The notes below the pieces were generated by a model. The model saw nothing but the letters and a program-made list of their open reading frames with translations. It had not been told where the DNA came from and made no database searches. From contig JBBRMM010000004.1 in assembly GCA_038230835.1 (NCBI GenBank), positions 157,972 through 221,971 of the forward strand: 64,000 nt of DNA, written 5' to 3'. The stretch comes from Gaiellales bacterium (GTDB lineage: Bacteria; Actinomycetota; Thermoleophilia; Gaiellales; JAICJC01). Shown piece by piece: positions 414-51,460 of this stretch. Within the stretch, counting starts at the first letter, position 1, and every line of letters starts with the position of its first letter. Both the position numbers and the translations under genes were made by a program.

Positions 414-466
414 GCGTCACGCCCCGGCAGCGCTCAGGCGGCCCGCCTGACCTCTGTCGCCGGATC

Positions 467-518
467 GTCACGACTCCGTGTCCCGAACCGTTCGGGGTCT
501 GACCCCGGGGTGGGGTGG
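467..518 (-). repeat. C-block/palindromic repeat, copy 3 (reverse orientation, internally shortened)
   Basis: The reverse complement reads ccaccccaccccggggtcagaccccgaacggttcgggacacggagtcgtgac. It shares both ends with 49877-49948 and its core with 49641-49697. It lies between convergent gene ends. Confidence 0.65.
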
Positions 519-3568: not shown

Positions 3569-5003
3569 TCCGCGGAGCGGACGCGACCGGCTGATCCGCG
3601 CCGGTCTGTTCGCGACCCTGGCCGGTGCCACGACCGCGGCCGCCGCCGCAGGCGGTGCCCTCGTCTCGGGACGTGTCGGTGTGGCCGCAGCCGGCCTCGC
3701 CGGCGCGGGTTGGGTGGCCGCCCTCGCCCACGGGAAGATCGGGGGCCAGTCCGAGCGGCTGCACGCCTACGAGCAGTGGCAGACCAAGCTGCGCAGCGAG
3801 CTGGTCGGCCAATCGGCCTTCCTTGACCGCCTGGTGCGTGGGCTGGATGCGGTGTCGGAGAGCCTGGTCGAGTCGCGCGTGCTGGACAGCACGGCGGAGC
3901 AGGCCCGAACCGTGCTGGGAGCCGACGTGGCGGTGGTGCTGGTGCCCGACGCCGACGGCCGGCGACTGCGCCCGGCGGCGGCCCGCGGCGTCGCACTCGG
4001 CCCGATGGCGGACATCGCGGTCGAGTTCGAGGCACCGGGATCGCCGCTGGCCGAGGCCGCGCGGAGCCGGACGGCTGCCGCCGGCGGGCGTGAGGTCGTC
4101 GGCGAGGACGACCTTTGCCGGCACCTGCGGCCGACCTCGGTGCTCGCTGCGCCGATGGTTGCGGTGGGTGAACTGCACGCCCTTCTGGTGCTCGCACAGC
4201 TGGGCGACGACAAGAGCTTCGGGCCATCCGACCTCGCCCGGGCGAGCGTATTCGCCGACTTCGCCACCCGCGCCGTCGAAAACGCCATGCTGTTCGAGCG
4301 GGTGGAGTCGCTGCTCGCTCAGGCCCGAGTCCGCGAGACCGAGCGCGCCGAGCTCTCACGGCGGGTGGTGTCGGCGGAGCAGGACGAGCGGCGGCGGCTC
4401 TCGCTGCAGCTCCATGACGGCCCGCTGTCGTCGCTGTCCGGTGTCGGCATGATGCTCGACGCCGCGGTCGAAGACGTGACCGCCGGCCGCCTCGAGCCCG
4501 CCCTCCAGGTGCTGGAGACGGCGCGTCAGCGTCAGCGCGGCGTGATCCGTTCCCTGCGCGAGCTGTGCTTCGCGCTCGAGCCGTGGGTGTTGCGCGACCA
4601 GGGGTTCGTGACCGCCGTCCGGGCGCTCGCCGACGAGTTCGAGCGAGGCCACTCGGTGCGGATCGTGCTCGAGGTCGACCCCGCTGATGCGCTCTCCCCC
4701 GACGACCAGGTGTGCCTGTACCAGATCGTGCGGGAAGCGGTGGCCAATGCGATCAAGCATGCCCGCCCCAGCACGGTCGCGGTGACCGTGTCGGGCATGC
4801 CCGCCGACGGGTTCCGGGTGACGGTGGCCGACGACGGCACCGGGTTCTCGGCCGGCCCAGACGACGGCCTGCCCCACCACGGAATGGCGTCCATGCGCGA
4901 GCGGGCGGCGATTCTCCGCGCGGAGCTCACCGTCGAGTCGGTGCCGGGTAGCGGCACCACGGTCAGCCTGACCATGCCGGCGGCGGTCGTCGATGCGGCG
5001 TAG
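3528..5003 (+). CDS. sensor histidine kinase (TM + GAF-like + HisKA_3 + HATPase_c)
   Basis: ORF 3420..5003. H-box ERRRLSLQLHDGPLSSL and ATPase motifs (NAIKHA, DDGTGF, GSGT). The N-terminal part of the ORF overlaps the RR gene out of frame. ATG 3528 is chosen but uncertain. Confidence 0.8.
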   Translation: MPSQSPSDRPSSIDPRSGRDRLIRAGLFATLAGATTAAAAAGGALVSGRVGVAAAGLAGAGWVAALAHGKIGGQSERLHAYEQWQTKLRSELVGQSAFLDRLVRGLDAVSESLVESRVLDSTAEQARTVLGADVAVVLVPDADGRRLRPAAARGVALGPMADIAVEFEAPGSPLAEAARSRTAAAGGREVVGEDDLCRHLRPTSVLAAPMVAVGELHALLVLAQLGDDKSFGPSDLARASVFADFATRAVENAMLFERVESLLAQARVRETERAELSRRVVSAEQDERRRLSLQLHDGPLSSLSGVGMMLDAAVEDVTAGRLEPALQVLETARQRQRGVIRSLRELCFALEPWVLRDQGFVTAVRALADEFERGHSVRIVLEVDPADALSPDDQVCLYQIVREAVANAIKHARPSTVAVTVSGMPADGFRVTVADDGTGFSAGPDDGLPHHGMASMRERAAILRAELTVESVPGSGTTVSLTMPAAVVDAA

Positions 5004-6372
5004 CCGCACGTCCTCCCCCGCCCTGCTCACCGAGCTCGTGGCGGCCTGCGAGGCGGGCCGTGACCTGCCCGCCATCCTCGACATCGCCTGCCGCGCCGTC
5101 GCCGAGTCGCTCGGCAGCGACCGCGTGGCCGCCTACACCGTGTCCGCCGACGGAGCGGCATTCGAGCGCGTGTGCGGCTCCGGCGACGACCAACTGGCGG
5201 CGACGTCGAACACCGAACCGGCGGTCGACGGCGAGGTGTTGCGACTGCCACTGGTCAGCGCCCGGCGAGTTCTGGGCTGTCTGACGGCACACGCTCCGCG
5301 GCGGGTCGAGATCGCCACCGCCCGGCTGGTGGCCGGCGTGGCGGCACAGGCGGTGGAAGCCTCGCGGCTGTGGGAGTCTGCCGGCGCCAGCGCGGGCACG
5401 CTCGACCTGCTCACCGGTTTGCCCAACCACCGCGGGTTCTCCGAGCGCGCTGGACTCGAGCTCGCACGCGCCAAGCGCACGGGCGGCCAGGTCGCGCTGG
5501 CGATGGTCGACGTGGACGGGTTCGGCGCACTCAACGAGGTTACCGGCCACCAGAACGGTGACAGCGTCCTGCGCACCGCCGCCCGCTGTTTTGCGGACGG
5601 CGTGCGGTCGTACGACAGCGTGTGCAGGCTCGGCGGAGACGCGTTCGGCCTCGTGCTGCCCGGAATGACCGCGCCGGCGGCAGCCGGACTGATCAGCCGT
5701 CTGGGCGCCGCGTTCTCCACCTCGACCGACGGCGTCACGGTATCGGGCGGGGTGGCCGGATTCCCCGAGCACGGGGCCACGCTGGCCGAGATCGAACGGC
5801 TGGCGGCGGGATCGCTGTACTGGGCCCAGCGTGGCGGTGGCGGGCGAATCGTCGCCTATGACCCCGCTGTCGTCGAGTCGCTGTCTGCCGAGGAGCGGCT
5901 CGATCAACTCGAGCGCGACACCTACGAGCGCACGATGCGCGCTCTGGAGGCCGCCCGCGGCCAGTCAGCCACCGCCCGGGCGGTCAGCGACTACGCGGGC
6001 TTCCTCGCCTCGGGCCTCGACCTCACACCCGACCGCGCCGACCGGCTGCGGCTGGCGGCGTACGTCTACGACACCACCACACCCGGCGGCGACGAGGTGG
6101 AGCGAGCGCGACTGGCCGCGCGTGTGGCCGCCAACGCGCTGGACGCCGAGGCCGCGGAGTGGCTGCTCGCCGTGCGGACGCCCGACGCCCCCATCGAGTC
6201 GCGCATCATCGCAGTGGCTGCCGGATTCGTGGAGGCGGGCGGGCACACCGGCAGCGCCGGCGCCGGCCGCGCACTGGCTGAGCTCTGGCGCGAGACCGAT
6301 GAGCGCTACGACCGTGAGGTGGTGCGCGCGCTCGAGAGCCTGCTCGCCGACCGCGTCAGCCCGGTGGGCTAA
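4993..6372 (+). CDS. GAF-like / GGDEF (variant GGDAF, intact RxxD I-site) / degenerate HD-GYP-like protein
   Basis: 459 aa. LLTGLPNHRGF...VDVDGFGALNE...RSYDSVCRLGGDAFGLVLPG. The C-terminal region aligns by eye to HD-GYP, but LAAYVYD replaces the HD motif. It overlaps the HK stop by 11 nt. Confidence 0.85.
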   Translation: MRRSRTSSPALLTELVAACEAGRDLPAILDIACRAVAESLGSDRVAAYTVSADGAAFERVCGSGDDQLAATSNTEPAVDGEVLRLPLVSARRVLGCLTAHAPRRVEIATARLVAGVAAQAVEASRLWESAGASAGTLDLLTGLPNHRGFSERAGLELARAKRTGGQVALAMVDVDGFGALNEVTGHQNGDSVLRTAARCFADGVRSYDSVCRLGGDAFGLVLPGMTAPAAAGLISRLGAAFSTSTDGVTVSGGVAGFPEHGATLAEIERLAAGSLYWAQRGGGGRIVAYDPAVVESLSAEERLDQLERDTYERTMRALEAARGQSATARAVSDYAGFLASGLDLTPDRADRLRLAAYVYDTTTPGGDEVERARLAARVAANALDAEAAEWLLAVRTPDAPIESRIIAVAAGFVEAGGHTGSAGAGRALAELWRETDERYDREVVRALESLLADRVSPVG

Positions 6373-6554
6373 GAACTCGTTTCAGAATGAGCTTCGTCGT
6401 GAGGCGCAGGGCGCGGTGGTTGCGGGAAGGATCGAGCGGCGAGCGGAGCGCAGGCGTGGCTGAAGCCACGTTGAGCACCGCACGCAGCGTGGGACGCACC
6501 CGCAAACCGGCGCGAACCAGCCGCAACAGAAGCTCATTCTGAAACGAGTTCTTA
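6370..6554. mobile_element. MITE-like non-autonomous element, copy 1
   Basis: Perfect terminal inverted repeats: ctaagaactcgtttcagaatgagcttc at 6369-6395 and its exact reverse complement at 6529-6555. The interior is an imperfect palindrome with no coding capacity. A near-identical copy lies at 49956-50138. Confidence 0.7.
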
Positions 6555-6862
6555 GTCCCAGCTCAGCCACCGTTCACGCTTCGAGGCAAGGCGTCTCCCC
6601 GCAGCGTGGCGGTCGAGCCGAGCGGCTCAACGACGCTCGGCCTGGCGACCGGTTCCTGGCCTTGTGATGGGAGTGGGTCGCCGGCTTCGTCCACCCGAAT
6701 GGTCGGCTCGGGCTGGCCGAAGGTGTAGCCGCGGAATTCCGGCGGCGGCGCTCGGCCGGCTGCGTTACAGGGCAGCCGCCGGCCGAGTCCCCCCGCCGTC
6801 TATCCACACTCGGTTATCGGCACCAGGCCGGAACGGTTCGCCCCCCGGATGGGCGATGAGCG

Positions 6863-7009
6863 TCAGTCGCGACTGCCGCGGCCGAACACGACGGTGATCG
6901 CGACCAGTCCGGCCACAAAGAGCAGGGTGATCGGCACGGCAAGGCCAGACACGAGGACGAGCACGGGGGAGCCTTTCAGCGGAGCCGGGGAGAGCTGCAC
7001 TCTCGACAT
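6863..7009 (-). CDS. possible small membrane protein (48 aa)
   Basis: ORF 6863..7084 read from M26. The C-terminal half, PVLVLVSGLAVPITLLFVAGLVAITVVF, is a clear TM segment. There is no other support. Confidence 0.25.
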   Translation of the reverse strand: MSRVQLSPAPLKGSPVLVLVSGLAVPITLLFVAGLVAITVVFGRGSRD

Positions 7010-7391
7010 GCACCGCCGCCGTGGCGCGCGCAATCCCCTCCCAGGGTGGTCTGTTGGGCCTGCGCGGGGAGAGGTCCAATGCACTCGCCCGCGCAGGCGC
7101 TACCTGGTCGGACGGCGCGCTGGATCGACGCGGTCTATCCGAGTGCCCACACCCAGGTCATTTCGCGATACCGACCAGATCTCGGCCGCGGCGTGTTGCG
7201 ACTCGACCAAGCGCCGCGCGTGCTTCACGTCGCGCATTGTGGCGACCGGTCGTCTCGACGCGGCTGCTGGTTCGCAAACCGTGCCAAATCAGGTCACCCT
7301 CCTGGGCATGGTTGTCCCAGTGTGTGAGTGGTTGCATTCTCGGGCTGCGGGGTGGAGGATGGACATGCTCGATACTCGGTGAGGAGGCGGC

Positions 7392-8300
7392 ATGGGCGTG
7401 TTTGGGAAGCTCGGTGGTGCGTGGCGGCCACTGGCCAGGGTGCTGGTGGTCTCGGCTCTGGCGACGGTCGTAAGCGCGGTTGTGTGGATGCAGCAGGCCA
7501 ACGGCGCGGCCAAAACGCTAGCGACGTTTTCGCAGATTGGCCAGTACAAGTGGAAGGTGCCGGCGGGGGTCACGTCGGTGACGTTCGATGTGTACGGCGC
7601 GTCTGGAGGCAACGTGCTTGCAGTCCAACACGGCGTTGTGACCGTCGTTACGCAGGGTGGTGCGGGTGGTGAGGCGCGGGGCCGGTTTAGCGTTCACCCG
7701 GGCGAGGTGTTTGAGATTGTGGTGGGCGGGCAGGGCGCGGCGGAGACAGAGGGCGTCACGAACCAGTTTGGCTTCGGCGGGTTCAACGGGGGTGGCGACG
7801 GCGATCAGGCGACTCGGTTTGGTGGGACGCTGGTGTCTGGCGGTGGTGGGGGCGCTTCGGACGTACGCATCGGCGGGCGAGGCAACTCCTGCGCTTCGAC
7901 CGTATGTCTCCTCCCAGACCGGATTATCGTCGCGGGAGGCGGTGGCGGGGGATCGGACGGGAACACCACCGGCGGGAACGGAGGAGTTGGCGGTGGAGTG
8001 ACCGGTGGCCCACCGCGCGTGGGCGGGGGCCAAGAGAACTTCGGACTAGGTGGCGGCGAACCTTCCGGGCAACTCATCGCAGGCTTCGGCGTGGGTGCTA
8101 CGGCGACCGTCGCCACCGGCATCGGTGGTGGAGGCGGCGGGTGGTATGGCGGCGGCAGCTCAAACGGATCAAACGGAATCAACCCGCCACCCCCAGGCAG
8201 CGGCGGCGGCAGCGGCTACATCAGCCAACTGTCCGTGACCGACTCCTTCCCCGGCGGCACACGCCTCGGCGACGGCGAGGTGATCATCACCACCCCATAA
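7392..8300 (+). CDS. secreted glycine-rich protein (Gly_rich / ALK-LTK glycine-rich domain type)
   Basis: GAGGAGG RBS 5 nt upstream. Signal/anchor ARVLVVSALATVVSAVVW. Family-typical YKWKVPAGVTSVTFDVYGASGG...VVGGQG...GGGGGASDVRIGG...RIIVAGGGGGG. Confidence 0.8.
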   Translation: MGVFGKLGGAWRPLARVLVVSALATVVSAVVWMQQANGAAKTLATFSQIGQYKWKVPAGVTSVTFDVYGASGGNVLAVQHGVVTVVTQGGAGGEARGRFSVHPGEVFEIVVGGQGAAETEGVTNQFGFGGFNGGGDGDQATRFGGTLVSGGGGGASDVRIGGRGNSCASTVCLLPDRIIVAGGGGGGSDGNTTGGNGGVGGGVTGGPPRVGGGQENFGLGGGEPSGQLIAGFGVGATATVATGIGGGGGGWYGGGSSNGSNGINPPPPGSGGGSGYISQLSVTDSFPGGTRLGDGEVIITTP

Positions 8301-8342
8301 CCAAGACCCGCCACCGCCCCGCCCGACCGGAGGACTAAGGCG

Positions 8343-46400: not shown

Positions 46401-46700
46401 TCGCAGAAGGCGTGTACAGAAGGTGTGGATCGTCGAGATCCACGCCGAGTCCACCTGCCGCGACCGCTCGCCGTCCCCGCGCGCGATCAGCGCCTCGCGC
46501 ACCCGCCGGCGAAGCTCCGAGGCGGCGCGGTCGGTGAAGGTGATGACCAGGATCCGGTCGAGCCCGGTGCCGGCGTCGATCCGGCGCAGCACGCGCTCCA
46601 CCAGCACCGCGGTCTTACCGGTGCCGGCGCCGGCTGACACGAAGACGTGACCGTCCCGCTCGATCGCCTCGAGCTGCTCGGGGTTCCAGGGCCGGCTCAC
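43452..46700 (-). CDS. addA: UvrD/AddA-type helicase-nuclease subunit A
   Basis: SAGAGTGKT Walker A, UvrD helicase motifs and a C-terminal PD-(D/E)XK nuclease (VVDYKT). The ORF extends to 46748, but GTG 46700 overlaps the addB TGA. Confidence 0.85.
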   Translation of the reverse strand: MSRPWNPEQLEAIERDGHVFVSAGAGTGKTAVLVERVLRRIDAGTGLDRILVITFTDRAASELRRRVREALIARGDGERSRQVDSAWISTIHTFCTRLLRANAIEAGLDPRFAVADEVQARMLQSEAFDLALERYLADADERRLDLLAAYSRRRLRELLCDAFERLRSAGRAVGLVAHREPDIAGAMRAALAACAGLGEQPEALALAALIDTQPDAAALADLSAFAVRNTDRYKAYNAARHALEEAARDAAAMTDLALLDRLLSEFSAAYQELKDRRSLVDFADLELRARDLLERAPELAAAYRERFAEVMVDEFQDTNRLQVELIDQVAGGRLFLVGDEFQSIYRFRHADVAVYRERRAAAGAEAVSLTRNYRSRPHVLDAVNTLFAATFGDRYTPLVAEQAFDGDPPADGHVELLLTDKTGFPDAGRSWREAEAEQLAARVLELVETEHVLPGEIVVLFEAGTDAAVFEAALRARRLPTVRTTGRGYYAQQQVADLLAYLRLLRNRYDDIALLSVLASPLVGISNDGLLAIRRGAPKRPIFTVFERDELPEGLGPDERRLAAAFSQRFARLAVRGGEVGLERLVDLIVADHDYDLACLAQPDGDRRMANVRKLARLAGDFESLRGPDLEGFIGFCDDQAALATREGDAAVAEENQGAIVLMTTHAAKGLEFEVVVLADCGRERGARRSRDLLIDAGGRVALKVPDPVDGSMRRALGFDEVAAAEAGAETEEGRRLQYVALTRARRHLVVSGALAPGDETTIAEICDGFGLGLDDEGDHDRVGARLRVRIHRPSDAPPVTTTPAGTQLGEGIGDQLALFAEGGRMPQVLVPLVPPEQPPPVALARLSYSALALYRRCGYRYFVQRVLGLPEADRVAADGAPGLDPLELGDAVHLELERPDGRWRGLYPNATEDDAGRIAGFVANWHSSTLAARVAETGAARREVGFAFEIAGVLFRGRLDMLVRTDPESVLVVDYKTNRLGERHPDELVDESYGVQVTTYALAALRSGARKVEIAYAFLEQPDAIAVREFTAEQAGALERELRDAIADIRSGRFAARPGPHCRECPALGLLCAGPGLESHT

Positions 46701-49600
46701 GGTCGCGGCACCCGGCAGATCGGATAGTGCATGCACCACGACGGGCACGTGCCGCCGCGCGGATCGTGGCGGACGTCGCCGGCGCGGATCCGCTCGACGA
46801 TCCCGATCGAGACCTCGACCGCGCGGTCGATCTGCGCCCAGAAGTCGTCGGCCTGGCGCAGGTCGGGCTGCTTGAGGCCGGTCGCATTCACCTCGCCCGC
46901 GAGCACCAGCCCGCGAGCCTCACGTGAGCCCGCCAGCGCGCGGTAGAGGCCGCCGACCGGCTCGACTCCGAGCAGCTCGCGCAGGGCCAGGATGTAGAGC
47001 GGAATCTGCAGCTTGCCGTCGCGCTCGAACTGGGCCGCCGCGTGTGCTGTGGCACCCGACTTGTAGTCCCAGACCAGTCCCCGCGGCGACATGCCCGGAT
47101 CCATGTCCACGCGGTCGATCACGCCTGACACGGCGAAGTCGCCGATCCGCAGCCCCTCCTTCAGCCCCGGGGCTGACGTTGCGCCGCCGAAGCGCACCTC
47201 GAACCGGCGCGGCACCAGGTCGAGGCCGAGCGCCACCTCGCTGCGCAGGAACCCCTCCAGGTCGCGCTCGAGAGCCCGGGTCAGCTCACGGCCGGCGACC
47301 GTCCCCGGCACCCGCTGGCCGCCCAGCGCCTCGTGCAGACACCGGCGCATCAGCGGCAGCGCGCGCGGCAGGGTCTCGTCGCTCACCCGATCGACTCCGA
47401 GCTCGGCCGGCACAAGCGTGAAGAAGCGGGCCAGCGTGGCATGCGCGACCGACCCCTTGAGCCTGGCGTCGAGCTCGAAGTCGATCTCGCGCGGGGAGAG
47501 CAGGCGCTCGACGAACCACATCGACGAGCAGTCTCCGAACCGCTCCAGGTCGGTGACCGAAAACTTCGGTGCCGCCGCGAGCTCGGCCGACGACGCGGCC
47601 GCCGTCAGGCACGTCGAACGCAGCAGCGCGGTCTGGGCCCGCCGCAGCCTGCGCTCCCAGCCCGCGGCGGCGGCGGTGGTGATCGCCCACCCCGGGTCGG
47701 TGCGCAGCTCGCGCGCCAGCGTGCGCCGGCGGGCGCGATCGTCCGGCGCCTGGTCGAGCGGCCAGGTGAGATCGGCGAGCCCGCGTCGGCGCACCGGCGT
47801 GTGCAAATCGACCAGCCGCCGCACCTCGTCGAGGAACGGCGAGGGGGCGATCGGCCGGCCGGCCTCGGTGACGGCGCTGCGGGCGAGGTGCAACCGCTTC
47901 CACGGCCGGGTGACAGCCGAGGTGAACAGATGGCGATCGAGCTCGGCGCGGTCGATCCGGTGCAGCCCGATCGACTCGGCCATCGACGCGTCCAGCAGCC
48001 GGCGGTCGGTCGACCCCGGCAGGCTGCCCTCCTCGAGGCCGAGCACGAACACGGCGTCGAAGCGGCGCGTCCGGGCCCGGCGCAGGTCGAGCACCGCAAC
48101 CCGGCCTGGCTCGGCATCCGCGCCGACCCGGACCGGCAGCCGGGACACCAGTTCGATCAGGTCGGACGGAGCGGTACCTGTGATGCCGAGCGCCCGGAGT
48201 TCGTCGGCCGCTCGAGTCACGCCGCGCAGGGCGCGCACCCCGACTCTCGCGTGCTCGGGGACGAAGCGCGCCGCCACCGAGTTGGCCGCACGCACCATGT
48301 CCCGGGCCAGCGTGACCAGTCCGTCGAGCGGGTCGGGGTTCTCCGCCAGCCGGTCGAGGGCGGGGGCGAATGGGCCGCCTGCGAGTTCGGTGGCCGCCTG
48401 CACAGTCTCGTCGTGGGCGAACACGCCCCGTCCGCGCAGCCGGCCCTCGATGAAGTCCACCCGCCGACGGGCGACTCCCGAGTACGGACTGCGCAGGTAG
48501 GCGAACAGGTCAGCCCGCTCTCCTGCGGTCCAGGCAAACCGCAGGCCGCCGGCGAGGGCGACCCCGAACCCGGTGTGGGAGAGCGGAAGCCGCGCGTCGA
48601 CCGCGATCGGCACCTCGAGCGCGGCGAACGCATTTTCGAGCGCGGCCCGGTGTGCAGCCACCGACGGGACGAGGATCGCGACCTGCTCCGGCGCGTAGCC
48701 ATCCCGTAGCAGCCCCAGCACCTCAGCCGCAACCAGCTCCGCGACGCCGCGCCGGCCGGCGGCCTCCAGCAACACCAGCGAGCCGTCGTCCGGTGGCGGC
48801 GGCGGCGCGGGAGCGTCCGTGAACAGGGTGCGCTCGAGATGCGCCAGCACCGGGGAGCGGAAGTGCTCGCCGGCGGGCAGCTCCTCGAACTCCGCGCCCC
48901 CTTCGGCGAGCGCCTCGACCAACGGTCGGACCGCCGCATAGGCCGGCCGCCCGGTCTCGTACGGCAGCGACACCGTGACCGGCACCCGAGCGGCCAGCGC
49001 GCGCAGTGCACGCACCTGGGCGGCGGTCATGTCCTCGAACCCGTAGGCGAGCACGGGCGTCTCGTCCCACGCGACCAGCCGCGACTCGAGCAGCCGGGCG
49101 CCATCCGCCGCCAGCCCGGCCCGGTCGACACCCAGGCCGATCCGGCTGCACTCGTCACGGTAGGCCCGCACGAGCGCGGCGAACTCCCCGGCCGACCCTT
49201 CCAGGCCGTCGGGGTCGAGCATCGCTCCGGCCAGCTCGTCGGTCAGACCCGACAGCGCATCGGCGAACCCCGCGAACCGCGCGGACACCGCCAGGGTGTC
49301 CAGCGTGCCCGCGGTGACCACGCGGCGCAGAATCAGCCGGCGCTGGATCTCCGACAGTGCGGCGGTCGATTCGCCGCAACGCTCGAGGGCACGCTCGAAC
49401 AGGTCGTCGAACGTGCCCACGCGCCCGCCCAGCACGGCCTCACGGCGGCGTAGGAGATCCCTCTCCACGAGCTCGACGTCAGTGCGGTTGGGGACGATCA
49501 GCCACGGCTCGGCGCCGGCATCCACCTCGGCCAGGAAACGCTCCTCGAGCAGCGCAACCTTGCCGCAGTTGGCTGGTCCGAGGATCAGGCGAAGCGGCAT
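46697..49600 (-). CDS. addB: AddB-type helicase-nuclease subunit B (degenerate Walker A, C-terminal Fe-S nuclease)
   Basis: LILGPANCGKV, a PD-(D/E)XK motif (VWDYKSG), and four Cys (FGDCSSMW plus CPSWCMHYPIC) as in the AddB iron staple. Confidence 0.8.
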   Translation of the reverse strand: MPLRLILGPANCGKVALLEERFLAEVDAGAEPWLIVPNRTDVELVERDLLRRREAVLGGRVGTFDDLFERALERCGESTAALSEIQRRLILRRVVTAGTLDTLAVSARFAGFADALSGLTDELAGAMLDPDGLEGSAGEFAALVRAYRDECSRIGLGVDRAGLAADGARLLESRLVAWDETPVLAYGFEDMTAAQVRALRALAARVPVTVSLPYETGRPAYAAVRPLVEALAEGGAEFEELPAGEHFRSPVLAHLERTLFTDAPAPPPPPDDGSLVLLEAAGRRGVAELVAAEVLGLLRDGYAPEQVAILVPSVAAHRAALENAFAALEVPIAVDARLPLSHTGFGVALAGGLRFAWTAGERADLFAYLRSPYSGVARRRVDFIEGRLRGRGVFAHDETVQAATELAGGPFAPALDRLAENPDPLDGLVTLARDMVRAANSVAARFVPEHARVGVRALRGVTRAADELRALGITGTAPSDLIELVSRLPVRVGADAEPGRVAVLDLRRARTRRFDAVFVLGLEEGSLPGSTDRRLLDASMAESIGLHRIDRAELDRHLFTSAVTRPWKRLHLARSAVTEAGRPIAPSPFLDEVRRLVDLHTPVRRRGLADLTWPLDQAPDDRARRRTLARELRTDPGWAITTAAAAGWERRLRRAQTALLRSTCLTAAASSAELAAAPKFSVTDLERFGDCSSMWFVERLLSPREIDFELDARLKGSVAHATLARFFTLVPAELGVDRVSDETLPRALPLMRRCLHEALGGQRVPGTVAGRELTRALERDLEGFLRSEVALGLDLVPRRFEVRFGGATSAPGLKEGLRIGDFAVSGVIDRVDMDPGMSPRGLVWDYKSGATAHAAAQFERDGKLQIPLYILALRELLGVEPVGGLYRALAGSREARGLVLAGEVNATGLKQPDLRQADDFWAQIDRAVEVSIGIVERIRAGDVRHDPRGGTCPSWCMHYPICRVPRP

Positions 49601-49640
49601 CGAGTGATTCTAGGCGCCTCCACCCCACACACCGACCCCC

Positions 49641-49697
49641 ACCCCACCCCCACCCCACCCCGGGGTCAAACCCCGTACGGACCGGGACACGGTTTCG
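49641..49697 (+). repeat. C-block/palindromic repeat, copy 1
   Basis: accccacccccaccccaccccggggtcaaaccccgtacggaccgggacacggtttcg. Confidence 0.7.
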
Positions 49698-49876
49698 TTG
49701 CAAAGATGCGCAGAACAGCAACCCGCGAGCCCCCGGTGTCCCAGCGCCTTGTAAGGAGCCGCCCCCATCCGAGCACCCCACGCGTTCTGTGGTTACAAGG
49801 CCTGGCGCCGCCCCAGCCGCGCCGAGCCGACCGCCCCGAGCCGCCGAGGGCGCATACCGTCAAGGTCGACCCGGCC

Positions 49877-49948
49877 ACCCCACCCCCACCCCACCCCGGG
49901 GTCAGACCCCGTACGGACCGGGGGACGGATTCGGCACGGAGTCGTGAC
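49877..49948 (+). repeat. C-block/palindromic repeat, copy 2 (longest)
   Basis: accccacccccaccccaccccggggtcagaccccgtacggaccgggggacggattcggcacggagtcgtgac. It is a direct repeat of 49641-49697, placed 236 bp downstream. Confidence 0.7.
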
Positions 49949-49955
49949 ACCGCTC

Positions 49956-50138
49956 TAAGAACTCGTTTCAGAATGAGCTTCGTCGTGAGGCGCAGGGCGC
50001 GGTGGTTGCGGGAAGGATCGAGCGGCGAGCGGAGCGCAGGCGTGGCTGAAGCCACGTTGAGCACCGCACGCCGCGTGGGACGCACCCGCAACCGGCGCGA
50101 ACCAGCCGCAACAGAAGCTCATTCTGAAACGAGTTCTA
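49956..50138. mobile_element. MITE-like non-autonomous element, copy 2
   Basis: Same TIRs as 6370-6554. Internally it differs by one substitution and one 1-nt indel, plus 1 nt at the right terminus. Confidence 0.7.
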
Positions 50139-50167
50139 AACCGCAGGGGTCATCAGGGCTCGGGCGG

Positions 50168-51460
50168 TCAGCTCAGCACTCGCCCGTCCAGCCCCGAGGC
50201 GTCGAGCCCCAGGCCGTCCAGCGCGGTCGCGGCGACATCCTCGACGCGCGCGTCCCCGGATGGGTGTACGCCGCGAACGAGCACGAACGCGTCGTCGGCA
50301 GTGTGCATCCCGGTCAGCCGGCCGTTGCCCTGAAGCTCGGTGGTTCGCACCGAGCCCTTCAGATCCCAGCCGTTGTGCGACTCCAGCACCAGATCCGGGG
50401 CCCGATCGACGCAGGGACCGTGGAACGCCTGCTCGCGGGTCGCGACGTGCTTGACGAACGGCAGCCCGTCCGCCCAGGCGGCCAGTTCGCCGCGCACCGC
50501 GTCGTACTCGGACGGCAGCACCGTGCCGCCGGGCTCACGACCCGCCAGGTTCAGGTACAACCGACCTGGATCCATGCAGTAGGCCCGGGTCCGCTCGGTC
50601 ACGATCGAAGCGATCGACACCGCAGGGTCGGCCAGGCTCAGCCACCCGTCGCGCTCCAGCCAGCGGTTCACGTACACCTCGTGGTCGAGCCGGCAGAAGC
50701 CGTGATCGGAGAGCAGGATCAGCCGGCAGTCATCCGGCAGCCGCCGCACCACCTCGCCGACCGCGGCGTCGACCCGGTCGTAGTACTCGTGGAACCTGCT
50801 CGCCCACGGCTCCTCACCGGATTCCATCTGCGCCCAGAGGAAGTGGTGCAGGCGATCGGTGCCCGTGAAGGCCACGTAGTAGAGGTCGCACGGCTCACGC
50901 TCCAACAACCCGACCAGCACCCTTGCCCGCGCCTCGTGGTGGATCAATAGCTGCCCCCAGAAGGCCTCCAGATCCGTATGCCCCAGCGCCAGGTCGACGT
51001 CGATCATGTAGCCCTGGTCGCGCAGCCACCGCTGAAGCTCGGGCGGCTGCACCGCCTTTTCGAACACCGGCGAGACGAAGCCCGAAACCAGCACGCCTCG
51101 GCGCGGTTGTGGCTGCGCCGGATACGTACCTGGGATGTTCACGACCACCGAGCGCATGCCCGCCCGGCCGGCGAGCTCCCATACCGTGGGCGCGGCGATC
51201 GTCAGAGCATTAGTGAACGTCATGTCCCAACTCGCGGCCCTGCGCTCCACGAACCCGAACACCCCGTGACGGCCCGGGTTCACGCCCGTCGACGCGCCGG
51301 CCCAGGACACCGAGGAGATCGGCGGCAGCGGCGCCCCGGCGCTGGTCAACGTGCCCTGGCGAGACAGGCCGGCCAGGTTCGGCAGGCCGCCGGCGGCGAT
51401 CCGCGCGCGAAGGTAACTCGCCGGTGCACCGTCCAGCCCGATGACCGCAACCCTGGGCAC
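50168..51460 (-). CDS. alkaline-phosphatase-superfamily enzyme (nucleotide pyrophosphatase/phosphodiesterase type)
   Basis: The N-terminus VAVIGLDGAP and SDHGF metal-site motifs are typical of type I phosphodiesterase/NPP-like proteins. Confidence 0.75.
   Translation of the reverse strand: MPRVAVIGLDGAPASYLRARIAAGGLPNLAGLSRQGTLTSAGAPLPPISSVSWAGASTGVNPGRHGVFGFVERRAASWDMTFTNALTIAAPTVWELAGRAGMRSVVVNIPGTYPAQPQPRRGVLVSGFVSPVFEKAVQPPELQRWLRDQGYMIDVDLALGHTDLEAFWGQLLIHHEARARVLVGLLEREPCDLYYVAFTGTDRLHHFLWAQMESGEEPWASRFHEYYDRVDAAVGEVVRRLPDDCRLILLSDHGFCRLDHEVYVNRWLERDGWLSLADPAVSIASIVTERTRAYCMDPGRLYLNLAGREPGGTVLPSEYDAVRGELAAWADGLPFVKHVATREQAFHGPCVDRAPDLVLESHNGWDLKGSVRTTELQGNGRLTGMHTADDAFVLVRGVHPSGDARVEDVAATALDGLGLDASGLDGRVLS

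What the first reader, a model, noticed from the sequence alone, without database searches (positions are those of the whole stretch)
6370..6554. MITE-like element with perfect 25-27-bp terminal inverted repeats, abutting and supplying the stop codon of the GGDEF gene
ctaagaactcgtttcagaatgagcttc (6369-6395) is the exact reverse complement of 6529-6555. The roughly 130-bp interior is itself an imperfect long palindrome with a central hairpin (cgtggc-tgaa-gccacg) and has no credible ORF. A second copy at 49956-50138 differs by only one substitution, one 1-nt indel and one terminal nt, which argues for recent mobility rather than an ancient conserved RNA. TA dinucleotides flank copy 1 on both sides. 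That would fit an IS630/Tc1-mariner-type TA target duplication, but this is an inference and copy 2 is ambiguous on its right side. No transposase is present in the window. The TAA stop of the 459-aa GGDEF protein (6370-6372) lies in the TA plus first base of the element, so the insertion may have set that protein's C-terminus.
Basis: partly seen in the sequence, partly recalled or inferred. Interest (0 to 1): 0.6.

Follow-up and report, generated by a model that had tools for sequence, protein, structure and literature searches.

The report
IS5-family MITE sitting on a stop codon
The 180-bp hairpin-forming repeat after the GGDEF gene is an ordinary non-autonomous transposon (MITE) of the IS5 family, one of a widespread soil-actinobacterial group that inserts at T-N-A sites, often a gene's own stop codon, without changing the protein.

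Summary
There are two near-identical copies of 179 and 178 bp (6373-6551 and 49959-50136), with perfect terminal inverted repeats, no conserved ORF, and a fold into one long hairpin. The 18-nt terminal core GAACTCGTTTCAGAATGA occurs in over 130 loci from soil Actinomycetota. It also bounds a 901-bp insertion sequence (L070) whose transposase matches NCBIfam "IS5 family transposase" over its full length. Across 50 paired elements the flanks are a direct 3-bp T-N-A duplication in a C|TNA|G context, so this is IS5/Tourist-like. It is not the TA duplication of IS630/mariner. A 96%-identical GGDEF ortholog without the element is also 459 aa and stops at the same codon. The element therefore sits on the existing stop codon and did not set the C-terminus. 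Family-wide, 38% of stop-codon-flanked ends abut a long ORF, against 8% for background. The window holds no transposase. Copy 1 lies at the edge of a 1,963-bp segment that the closest relative lacks, and the origin of that segment is unresolved. Verdict: a new member of a known kind, of modest interest.

The parts
4993..6372 (+). 459-aa GGDEF (diguanylate cyclase) gene. Its TAA stop codon is the left flanking trinucleotide of MITE copy 1.
   Evidence: ORF. Pfam PF00990 on the identical protein. The ortholog P0102 has the same length, 459 aa, and 96% identity.
6370..6372 (.). Left flanking TAA of copy 1: the target/duplication trinucleotide in C|TNA|G context, and also the GGDEF stop codon.
   Evidence: Sequence. 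Family-wide flank statistics. The ortholog stops at the same codon in L148.
6373..6551 (.). MITE copy 1, element proper (179 bp, GAAC...GTTC).
   Evidence: Boundaries come from the alignment of 175 distinct arms. Folds as one hairpin of -117 kcal/mol, z = -11.9.
6373..6395 (+). Left terminal inverted repeat of copy 1. The first 18 nt, GAACTCGTTTCAGAATGA, are the family core.
   Evidence: Matches the L070 IS ends at 18/18 and 17/18.
6455..6470 (.). Central stem-loop CGTGGC-TGAA-GCCACG at the tip of the long hairpin.
6529..6551 (-). Right terminal inverted repeat of copy 1.
6552..6554 (.). Right flanking TTA of copy 1. It does not match the left TAA.
6373..8335 (.). 1,963-bp segment absent from the closest relative (L148). 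It contains MITE copy 1, a 48-aa membrane ORF on the minus strand (about 6863-7009), and a glycine-rich protein gene (7392-8300, PF12810). C-TAA-G flanks it on both sides.
   Evidence: blastn of L148 against the window, with the junction sequences. Gene calls.
49956..49958 (.). Left TAA target-site duplication of copy 2.
49959..50136 (.). MITE copy 2, element proper (178 bp). It lies in the spacer between the Phosphodiest-family gene (50168-51460, minus strand) and the AddB-like gene (46697-49600, minus strand).
50137..50139 (.). Right TAA target-site duplication of copy 2, identical to the left one.

Best explanation
Both copies are non-autonomous deletion-type transposable elements (MITEs) of the IS5 family. 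They keep only the roughly 18-23-bp terminal inverted repeats that an IS5-family DDE transposase recognises. That transposase has DUF4096 and DDE_Tnp_1 domains, sits in a roughly 900-bp IS, and in some copies is read through a -1 frameshift. The interior is unrelated, palindromic filler. The transposase is supplied in trans from a full-length IS elsewhere. It inserts the element at a T-N-A trinucleotide, preferably C|TNA|G, and duplicates those 3 bp. In a genome of about 70% G+C such sites are concentrated at stop codons and between genes. Copy 1 therefore landed on the GGDEF stop codon, and the duplication regenerated the stop and left the protein unchanged. Shown here: the anatomy, the shared ends with an IS5-family IS, the TNA duplication, the enrichment at stop codons, and absence from the closest relative. 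Inferred: mobilisation in trans in this particular genome, the cut-and-paste chemistry, and any effect of the hairpin on the GGDEF transcript.
For: The anatomy and its departure from chance are. The 17-20-nt terminal core is found in 11 loci from species-representative genomes (Gaiellales, Solirubrobacterales, other Actinomycetota, one Streptomyces). It occurs as inverted pairs 45-901 bp apart. L070 4032-4932 is a 901-bp element with these ends and TTA/TTA flanks. Its two overlapping frames, joined by a -1 shift at CCAAAAAGGGGG, give a 270-aa protein that matches NCBIfam NF033580 'IS5 family transposase' at 251.6 bits over 2-258 of 258 positions. The same protein matches Pfam DUF4096 + DDE_Tnp_1 + DDE_Tnp_1_2. 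L073 is an internal-deletion derivative of that IS, and L121 is a decayed second copy. Intact relatives L152 and L153 (70-74% aa identity) have co-diverged ends and TTA flanks. Streptomyces plasmid IS5 elements (65-70% aa identity) have related ends and TAA/TTA flanks. For the duplication, 24 of 50 pairs have identical 3-nt flanks. Of 29 TNA/TNA pairs, 22 share the middle base (p = 8e-6). The flank consensus is C-T-N-A. Copy 2 has TAA/TAA. For stop codons, 24 of 63 TAA/TGA/TAG-flanked arms close an open frame of at least 150 codons, against 8.3% for background trinucleotides (p = 7e-11). For mobility, the relative L148 (93% nt identity) lacks copy 1, and its 459-aa ortholog stops at the same codon. 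Short-read contigs from two runs break at the inner edge of the repeat.
Against: No transposase lies in the 64-kb window, and the rest of the host genome could not be read, so a cognate IS in this organism is not shown. The taxon of the L070 contig is unknown. The interior of the window's element was found nowhere else, so its copy number is known only as 2. Copy 1's flanks are TAA/TTA, not a perfect duplication. The indel relative to L148 is 1,963 bp, not 182 bp, so copy 1 may not have arrived by simple transposition. The L070 frameshift may be a disabling mutation and not programmed, because the closest metagenomic relatives are single ORFs. The copy 2 empty site is inconclusive, because the relative's contigs break in that spacer.
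Confidence: 0.88

Rival explanations
1. This is the first reader's model: an IS630/Tc1-mariner-type MITE that duplicates a TA dinucleotide. Under it the element would be one base longer at each end (AGAAC...GTTCT).
For: Copy 1 reads C-TA-AGAAC...GTTCT-TA-G, which fits a TA duplication.
Against: The TA model predicts complementary middle bases (TAA on the left, TTA on the right) in every copy. Family-wide, 22 of 29 TNA/TNA pairs have the same middle base and 2 have complementary ones. Copy 2 itself is TAA/TAA. Every transposase found between these ends is IS5-family, and no IS630-type domain was found.
Confidence: 0.03
2. The primary identity is a structured RNA or DNA hairpin kept for a host function, such as a transcript 3'-end stabiliser, a terminator or a protein-binding palindrome. 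On this view it is not a selfish mobile element.
For: The hairpin is very stable (z about -12). It sits directly after a stop codon. In the related ~163-bp family the central hairpin is kept through GC-to-CG swaps.
Against: There is no Rfam family at gathering score, and the only sub-threshold hit scores 14 bits at E = 0.85. No terminator-like U-tract was found. The two copies lie in unrelated contexts. The ends are shared with transposase-bearing ISs and with elements whose interiors are unrelated. The element is absent from the 93%-identical relative. Compensatory changes in palindromes can also arise from template switching without selection (established knowledge, not tested here).
Confidence: 0.05
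3. Copy 1 did not transpose on its own. It arrived together with, or next to, the adjacent 1.78 kb (6552-8335) as part of one larger insertion. Alternatively, the relative lost the whole 1,963 bp by deletion between short direct repeats.
For: L148 lacks exactly 6373-8335. That segment is flanked by C-TAA-G on both sides and by an imperfect 13-nt direct repeat CCGGnGGnCTAAG. The MITE's own flanks do not match (TAA/TTA).
Against: The right end of the segment has no recognisable terminal repeat, matching the core at 8 of 18 positions, which is chance level. The MITE is a complete unit 98.9% identical to copy 2, as expected for an independently transposed copy. Mismatched middle bases also occur in 7 of 29 other pairs. 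More distant relatives differ further in this spacer, so the order of events cannot be set.
Confidence: 0.3

Closest known systems
IS5-family insertion sequences with DUF4096 + DDE_Tnp_1 transposase (NCBIfam NF033580), IS427-group-like. Examples are IS1248 and ISPaes1 of Paracoccus (PMC3281130) and the Streptomyces plasmid copies such as WP_163013395.1.
   Same: The autonomous partner (L070) is about 900 bp, has short terminal inverted repeats starting with G, and has two overlapping ORFs joined by a -1 frameshift. Its transposase matches NF033580 over the full length. It shares 65-70% aa identity with annotated Streptomyces 'IS5 family transposase' genes, whose ends (CAACGGCTAACAYAATGAG) resemble this family's and which are also flanked by TAA/TTA.
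   Different: The window holds only the transposase-less derivative. The Paracoccus IS427-group elements are reported with 2-bp (one with 4-bp) direct repeats (PMC3281130, Table 2), whereas this family shows 3-bp TNA. ISfinder lists 3 bp for the IS1031 group, but that is from memory and was not checked here. The terminal sequence GAACTCGTTTCAGAATGA was not found in any searchable paper.
Tourist-like MITEs and their PIF/Harbinger (PHIS superfamily) transposons of eukaryotes, including the NuwaII group with C|TNA|G targets (PMC4482050).
   Same: It works the same way. These are short TIR elements amplified by an IS5-related DDE transposase supplied in trans, with a 3-bp TNA/TWA duplication inside a short palindromic target (PMC4482050).
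   Different: Those elements are eukaryotic, so this is not the same family. PIF/Harbinger transposition needs a second Myb-like protein (from memory). The transposase here is a bacterial IS5-type single protein.
Bacterial MITEs in general, and mobile insertion cassettes (MICs) of Bacillus cereus. Both are cited in PMC3281130 as non-autonomous elements mobilised by ISs.
   Same: Small size, TIRs, no transposase, target duplication, hairpin-forming, multi-copy. Sister elements with the same ends carry a single passenger gene, as MICs do.
   Different: The transposase family and host phylum differ. The window's own copies carry no passenger gene.
   Same: Short TIR elements next to a TA-containing flank.
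   Different: Those duplicate TA and depend on IS630-type transposases. Both features were tested here and not met.

Membership tests
Bacterial MITE (non-autonomous TIR element) | Short length (tens to a few hundred bp) with terminal inverted repeats | tested here: met
   179 and 178 bp. The arms are a perfect 23 bp inside the element, or 27 bp with flank.
Bacterial MITE (non-autonomous TIR element) | No transposase or other conserved ORF inside | tested here: met
   Only chance ORFs of 62 aa or fewer lie within the element. The longer listed ORFs merely run through it from the flanks, and the sets differ between the copies. No tblastn hit to the transposase in the window.
Bacterial MITE (non-autonomous TIR element) | Flanked by a target-site duplication | tested here: inconclusive
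   Copy 2 has TAA/TAA, which meets the criterion. Copy 1 has TAA/TTA, which does not. Family-wide the duplication is clear.
Bacterial MITE (non-autonomous TIR element) | Multiple dispersed copies in one genome | tested here: inconclusive
   Two copies 43.6 kb apart in the 64-kb window. Short-read contigs break at the repeat. The rest of the genome was not available.
Bacterial MITE (non-autonomous TIR element) | Ends shared with an autonomous IS that can supply transposase | tested here: met
   L070 4032-4932 matches the core at 18/18 and 17/18 and carries an IS5-family transposase. Whether such an IS is present in the same genome is not testable here.
Bacterial MITE (non-autonomous TIR element) | Presence/absence polymorphism between close relatives | tested here: met
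   Copy 1 is absent from L148 at 93% nt identity, though as part of a 1,963-bp indel. Copy 2 is inconclusive.
IS5 family (derivative of) | Cognate transposase is an IS5-family DDE enzyme | tested here: met
   NF033580 at 251.6 bits against a cut-off of 110, over the full length. Pfam PF13340 + PF01609 + PF13586. Relatives are annotated 'IS5 family transposase'.
IS5 family (derivative of) | Short target duplication centred on TA/TNA in a palindromic target | tested here: met
   3-bp TNA with C before and G after.
IS5 family (derivative of) | Assignment to an ISfinder subgroup (IS427, IS1031 or ISL2) | not testable with these tools
   No ISfinder access. Size and the two-ORF frameshift resemble IS427 (PMC3281130). 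The 3-bp TNA resembles IS1031 (from memory).
IS630/Tc1-mariner-derived MITE | TA target duplication | tested here: not met
   22 pairs share the middle base against 2 complementary among TNA/TNA pairs. Copy 2 is TAA/TAA.
IS630/Tc1-mariner-derived MITE | IS630-type transposase bounded by the same ends | tested here: not met
   All transposases found between these ends are IS5-family.
Known structured RNA family (Rfam 15) | Covariance-model match at gathering score | tested here: not met
   No hit over the element at gathering score. The best sub-threshold hit is 14.1 bits at E = 0.85.

The most novel reading that the evidence does not exclude
The ends GAACTCGTTTCAGAATGA may define a large, undescribed superfamily of IS5-mobilised elements in soil Actinomycetota (Gaiellales, Solirubrobacterales and relatives). 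It would include 45-75-bp minimal elements, a dominant ~163-bp MITE with a hairpin kept by compensatory changes, and single-gene cassettes. The superfamily would preferentially home to stop codons, with the TNA duplication regenerating the stop. This would make it a near-neutral way to spread hairpins and small passenger genes to the 3' ends of genes. It could also have been co-opted as 3'-end RNA structures.
Probability: 0.3. Interest if true: 0.5.

Novelty: new member of a known kind. Interest (0 to 1): 0.3.

Why it matters
For annotation, the repeat should be masked as a MITE. It should not be called a gene, an sRNA or a terminator, and the GGDEF protein should be treated as full-length. 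For genome assembly, it explains why short-read contigs of this organism break at these sites. For biology, it documents a bacterial counterpart of plant Tourist/PIF elements in poorly studied Gaiellales-type Actinomycetota. It gives a concrete terminal sequence and a candidate transposase (L070) that could be tested as a TNA-targeting transposition system for high-G+C hosts. It also shows a measurable tendency to sit exactly on stop codons. None of this overturns current understanding of MITEs.

Tried and rejected
1. Rfam, at gathering score on the whole window and at E-value threshold on 6250-6700: nothing credible.
2. Promoter and terminator consensus scan of 6200-7500: none found.
3. Search for the window element's interior in all fetched loci and in IMG/VR: no other copy. 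Alignment to the dominant ~163-bp family shows similarity only in the ends.
4. Search for extra or decayed ends in the window, allowing up to 5 mismatches in 18: only the four known arms.
5. tblastn of the L070 transposase against the window: no hit.
6. IS630/TA model: rejected on flank statistics.
7. Integron attC or REP/RAYT-type readings: considered and dropped. The element has paired inverted ends with TNA duplication and a DDE IS partner. No integrase or Y1 transposase turned up where I looked, but I did not search for them systematically.
8. Empty site for copy 2: the relative's contigs L150 and L151 both end inside that spacer. L150 shows different sequence where the repeat would start, so this is inconclusive.
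9. Looking for a terminal repeat at the right end (8335) of the 1,963-bp segment: 8 of 18 matches, which is chance level (by eye).
10. Retrieving more of the host genome: exact-protein look-ups returned only short Logan contigs, not the 244-kb NCBI contig.
11. Literature: the terminal sequence is not in any searchable paper, and no paper was found on MITEs of this type in Actinomycetota.
12. Contig P0110: DNA not available.

Full report

Yes. Bases 6369-6395 are the exact reverse complement of 6529-6555, and the match extends to 30 nt at 97%. The 25-nt arm occurs four times in the window, twice per copy, against 0.00 expected in shuffles. No further or decayed arms exist, even allowing 5 mismatches in 18. 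The second copy lies at 49955-50139. Inside the element the two copies differ by one substitution and one 1-nt indel, giving 98.9% identity. The interior is a 72-73% imperfect palindrome. The unit folds as one hairpin of -117 kcal/mol with z = -11.9 (the other strand gives -107 kcal/mol). The tip is CGTGGC-TGAA-GCCACG at 6455-6470. ORFs overlapping the two copies are different chance ORFs. Rfam finds nothing, and no terminator-like or promoter-like site was found.

**2. What the ends belong to**

The 20-mer GAACTCGTTTCAGAATGAGC occurs in 11 loci of species-representative genomes. These are Gaiellales, Gaiellaceae, Solirubrobacterales, other Actinomycetota MAGs and one Streptomyces.

The core occurs as inverted pairs at several spacings:
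- 45-75 bp
- about 163 bp, the commonest, with 32 related members
- 215-250 bp
- 399-426 bp
- 492-725 bp
- 901 bp

The 901-bp element (L070 4032-4932) has TTA/TTA flanks and holds two overlapping frames. Joined by a -1 shift at CCAAAAAGGGGG, they give a 270-aa protein. That protein matches NCBIfam NF033580 'IS5 family transposase' over its whole length at 251.6 bits, against a cut-off of 110. It also matches Pfam DUF4096 + DDE_Tnp_1 + DDE_Tnp_1_2.

Several related elements support the link:
- L073 491-844 is an internal-deletion derivative of the same IS.
- L121 2676-3391 is a decayed copy.
- L101 and L009 hold remnants.
- Intact relatives at 70-74% aa identity (L152, L153) have co-diverged ends (GAAGTCG..., GAGCTCC...) and TTA flanks.
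- Streptomyces plasmid copies at 65-70% aa identity are annotated 'IS5 family transposase'. They have ends CAACGGCTAACAYAATGAG and TAA/TTA flanks. tblastn matches them in two pieces, as expected for a frameshift.

The window's element shares only the ends with these ISs. Its interior is unique among everything fetched. The window contains no transposase.

**3. Target duplication**

I aligned 175 distinct arms. The bases outside G1 of the core are C (65%), T (75%), N (A 39%, T 40%, C 14%, G 7%) and A (89%). Of 50 distinct paired elements, 24 have identical 3-nt flanks. Among 29 pairs that are TNA on both sides, 22 share the middle base (p = 8e-6 against 35%). Only 2 show the complementary pattern that a TA duplication with a one-base-longer repeat would require.

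The duplication is therefore 3-bp TNA in a C|TNA|G context. This matches what is described for relatives of IS5 in the PIF/Harbinger superfamily (PMC4482050). It is unlike the TA of IS630/mariner.

The two window copies compare as follows:

| Copy | Element | Left flank | Right flank |
|---|---|---|---|
| 1 | 6373-6551 | TAA (6370-6372) | TTA (6552-6554) |
| 2 | 49959-50136 | TAA (49956-49958) | TAA (50137-50139) |

Copy 2 conforms.

**4. The stop codon**

The TAA at 6370-6372 is the flank, meaning target, and is not part of the element. A JGI contig (L148) is 93% identical in DNA over 5.65 kb upstream and 91% over 2.7 kb downstream. It lacks the element. Its GGDEF ortholog (P0102) is 96% identical, has no gaps, and is also 459 aa. 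It stops with TGA at the same codon position, 4 nt from the stop of the convergent ABC-F gene. More distant homologues have variable tails of 5-15 residues after LLAD. So the insertion did not set the C-terminus.

This placement is typical of the family. Of 63 evaluable arms flanked by TAA, TGA or TAG, 24 (38%) close an open frame of at least 150 codons. The figure for all TAA/TGA trinucleotides in the same loci is 8.3% (p = 7e-11). The likely reason is inferred, not shown. In DNA of about 70% G+C, CTNAG sites are rare inside genes. An insertion on a stop codon is also harmless, because the duplication restores the stop.

**5. Mobility and copy number**

The two copies are 98.9% alike and lie in unrelated contexts. 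One is after the GGDEF gene. The other is in the spacer between a Phosphodiest-family gene and an AddB-like gene.

Copy 1 is absent from the closest relative. For copy 2, the relative's contigs end inside the spacer. The 44 nt available after the gene differ from the window where the repeat would begin, so this is inconclusive.

Four short-read contigs from two sequencing runs end at or within 4 nt of the inner edge of the repeat. This fits a multi-copy or palindromic sequence but proves neither. The genome-wide copy number and a cognate IS in this organism could not be checked.

**6. Unresolved**

Relative to L148, the window has 1,963 extra bases (6373-8335). They comprise the MITE, a 48-aa membrane ORF and a glycine-rich protein gene (PF12810). 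The segment is flanked by C-TAA-G on both sides and by an imperfect 13-nt direct repeat. Its right end has no terminal repeat. I could not decide among three readings: one event, two events (the segment first and the MITE later, or the reverse), or a deletion in the relative. More distant relatives lack the ABC-F gene as well.

**7. Mechanism**

The best-supported model is that an IS5-family DDE transposase, supplied in trans, binds the 18-23-bp ends and inserts the element at TNA with a 3-bp duplication. The element itself is passive.

The long hairpin right after the GGDEF stop codon would be part of the mRNA 3' end. It might affect that mRNA's stability or termination, but this is speculation, and there is no U-tract.

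The related ~163-bp family keeps its central hairpin through GC-to-CG swaps. At columns 77/101 the counts are GC 12 and CG 9. At columns 80/98 they are CG 14, GC 7 and AU 2. Selection on a DNA or RNA hairpin could explain this, and so could palindrome-correcting template switching.

**8. Comparison and novelty**

The element works like a Tourist/PIF MITE and like other bacterial MITEs. By its partner transposase and target duplication it belongs with IS5-family derivatives. The partner resembles the IS427 group in size and two-ORF layout (PMC3281130). However, that paper reports 2-bp repeats for that group, against 3 bp here. Subgroup assignment needs ISfinder.

The terminal sequence is in no searchable paper. 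This is therefore an undescribed family of a well-known kind of element. Interest is modest at 0.3. The stop-codon preference and the single-gene cassettes with the same ends are the parts most worth a follow-up.

Noticed in passing
window 466-518 (inverted), 49639-49697, 49875-49933: This is a second small repeat family, 85-93% alike. It has a C-rich run (CCACCCCACCCC) followed by the palindrome GGGGTCAGACCCC. Two copies lie between the AddB-like gene start and MITE copy 2. A short-read contig (L012) starts inside the 466-518 copy. It may be a REP-like element.
   Followed up: partly
window 6552-8335: This 1.78-kb stretch next to MITE copy 1 is absent from the 93%-identical relative L148. It carries a 48-aa membrane ORF on the minus strand (about 6863-7009), a 302-aa glycine-rich secreted protein (7392-8300, PF12810 ALK_LTK_GRD), and about 800 bp with no clear gene.
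   Followed up: partly
L004 2158-2573, L011 1479-1894, L065 50-475, L093 1822-2246, L127 864-1288: These 416-426-bp elements have the same terminal repeats and TAA/TAA flanks. They enclose an intact, conserved 97-aa ORF (FGxIHRFxGGTKDQYEA...EFEIHKEKQGS) with no Pfam match. They look like single-gene mobile cassettes.
   Followed up: partly
L022 1264-1988, L041 1144-1761, L042 442-1055 / L099 1287-1778: These 492-725-bp elements have the same ends. Each carries one small protein with a signal-peptide-like N-terminus and no Pfam match.
   Followed up: no
L009 6304-7915 (Streptomyces sp. NBC_00133) and L007 4454-5591: A 375-410-aa ORF that I read by eye as a glycosyltransferase (no domain search was run) has its last codons and stop (…SSF*) supplied by the terminal repeat. 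In L009 a transposase C-terminal remnant and a degenerate second repeat lie on the other side, so the gene sits between the ends.
   Followed up: partly
23 loci aligned in A2 (e.g. L003 137-300, L046 1253-1416, L084 2281-2445): The dominant ~163-bp MITE family keeps a central hairpin through compensatory GC-to-CG and CG-to-AU changes, flanked by conserved non-palindromic blocks (GCGTCCTCGGTCGC ... CTCCCTGCGTCCTTGC).
   Followed up: partly
L024 1-55, L031 23-67, L051 3749-3800, L067 1667-1721, L111 6381-6433: These are minimal elements of 45-75 bp that consist of little more than two terminal repeats back to back. Several have matching TCA/TCA flanks.
   Followed up: no
L134 4378-4513 and L137 4402-4430: In more distant relatives the spacer after the GGDEF gene holds other palindromes (TGTCAGGCACCGTCACG...CGTGACGGATGCCAGACA and ATGAATAAAAGGTGCCTGGCACCTTTTATTCA). 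A similar GGTGCCAGGCACC motif ends contig L150.
   Followed up: no
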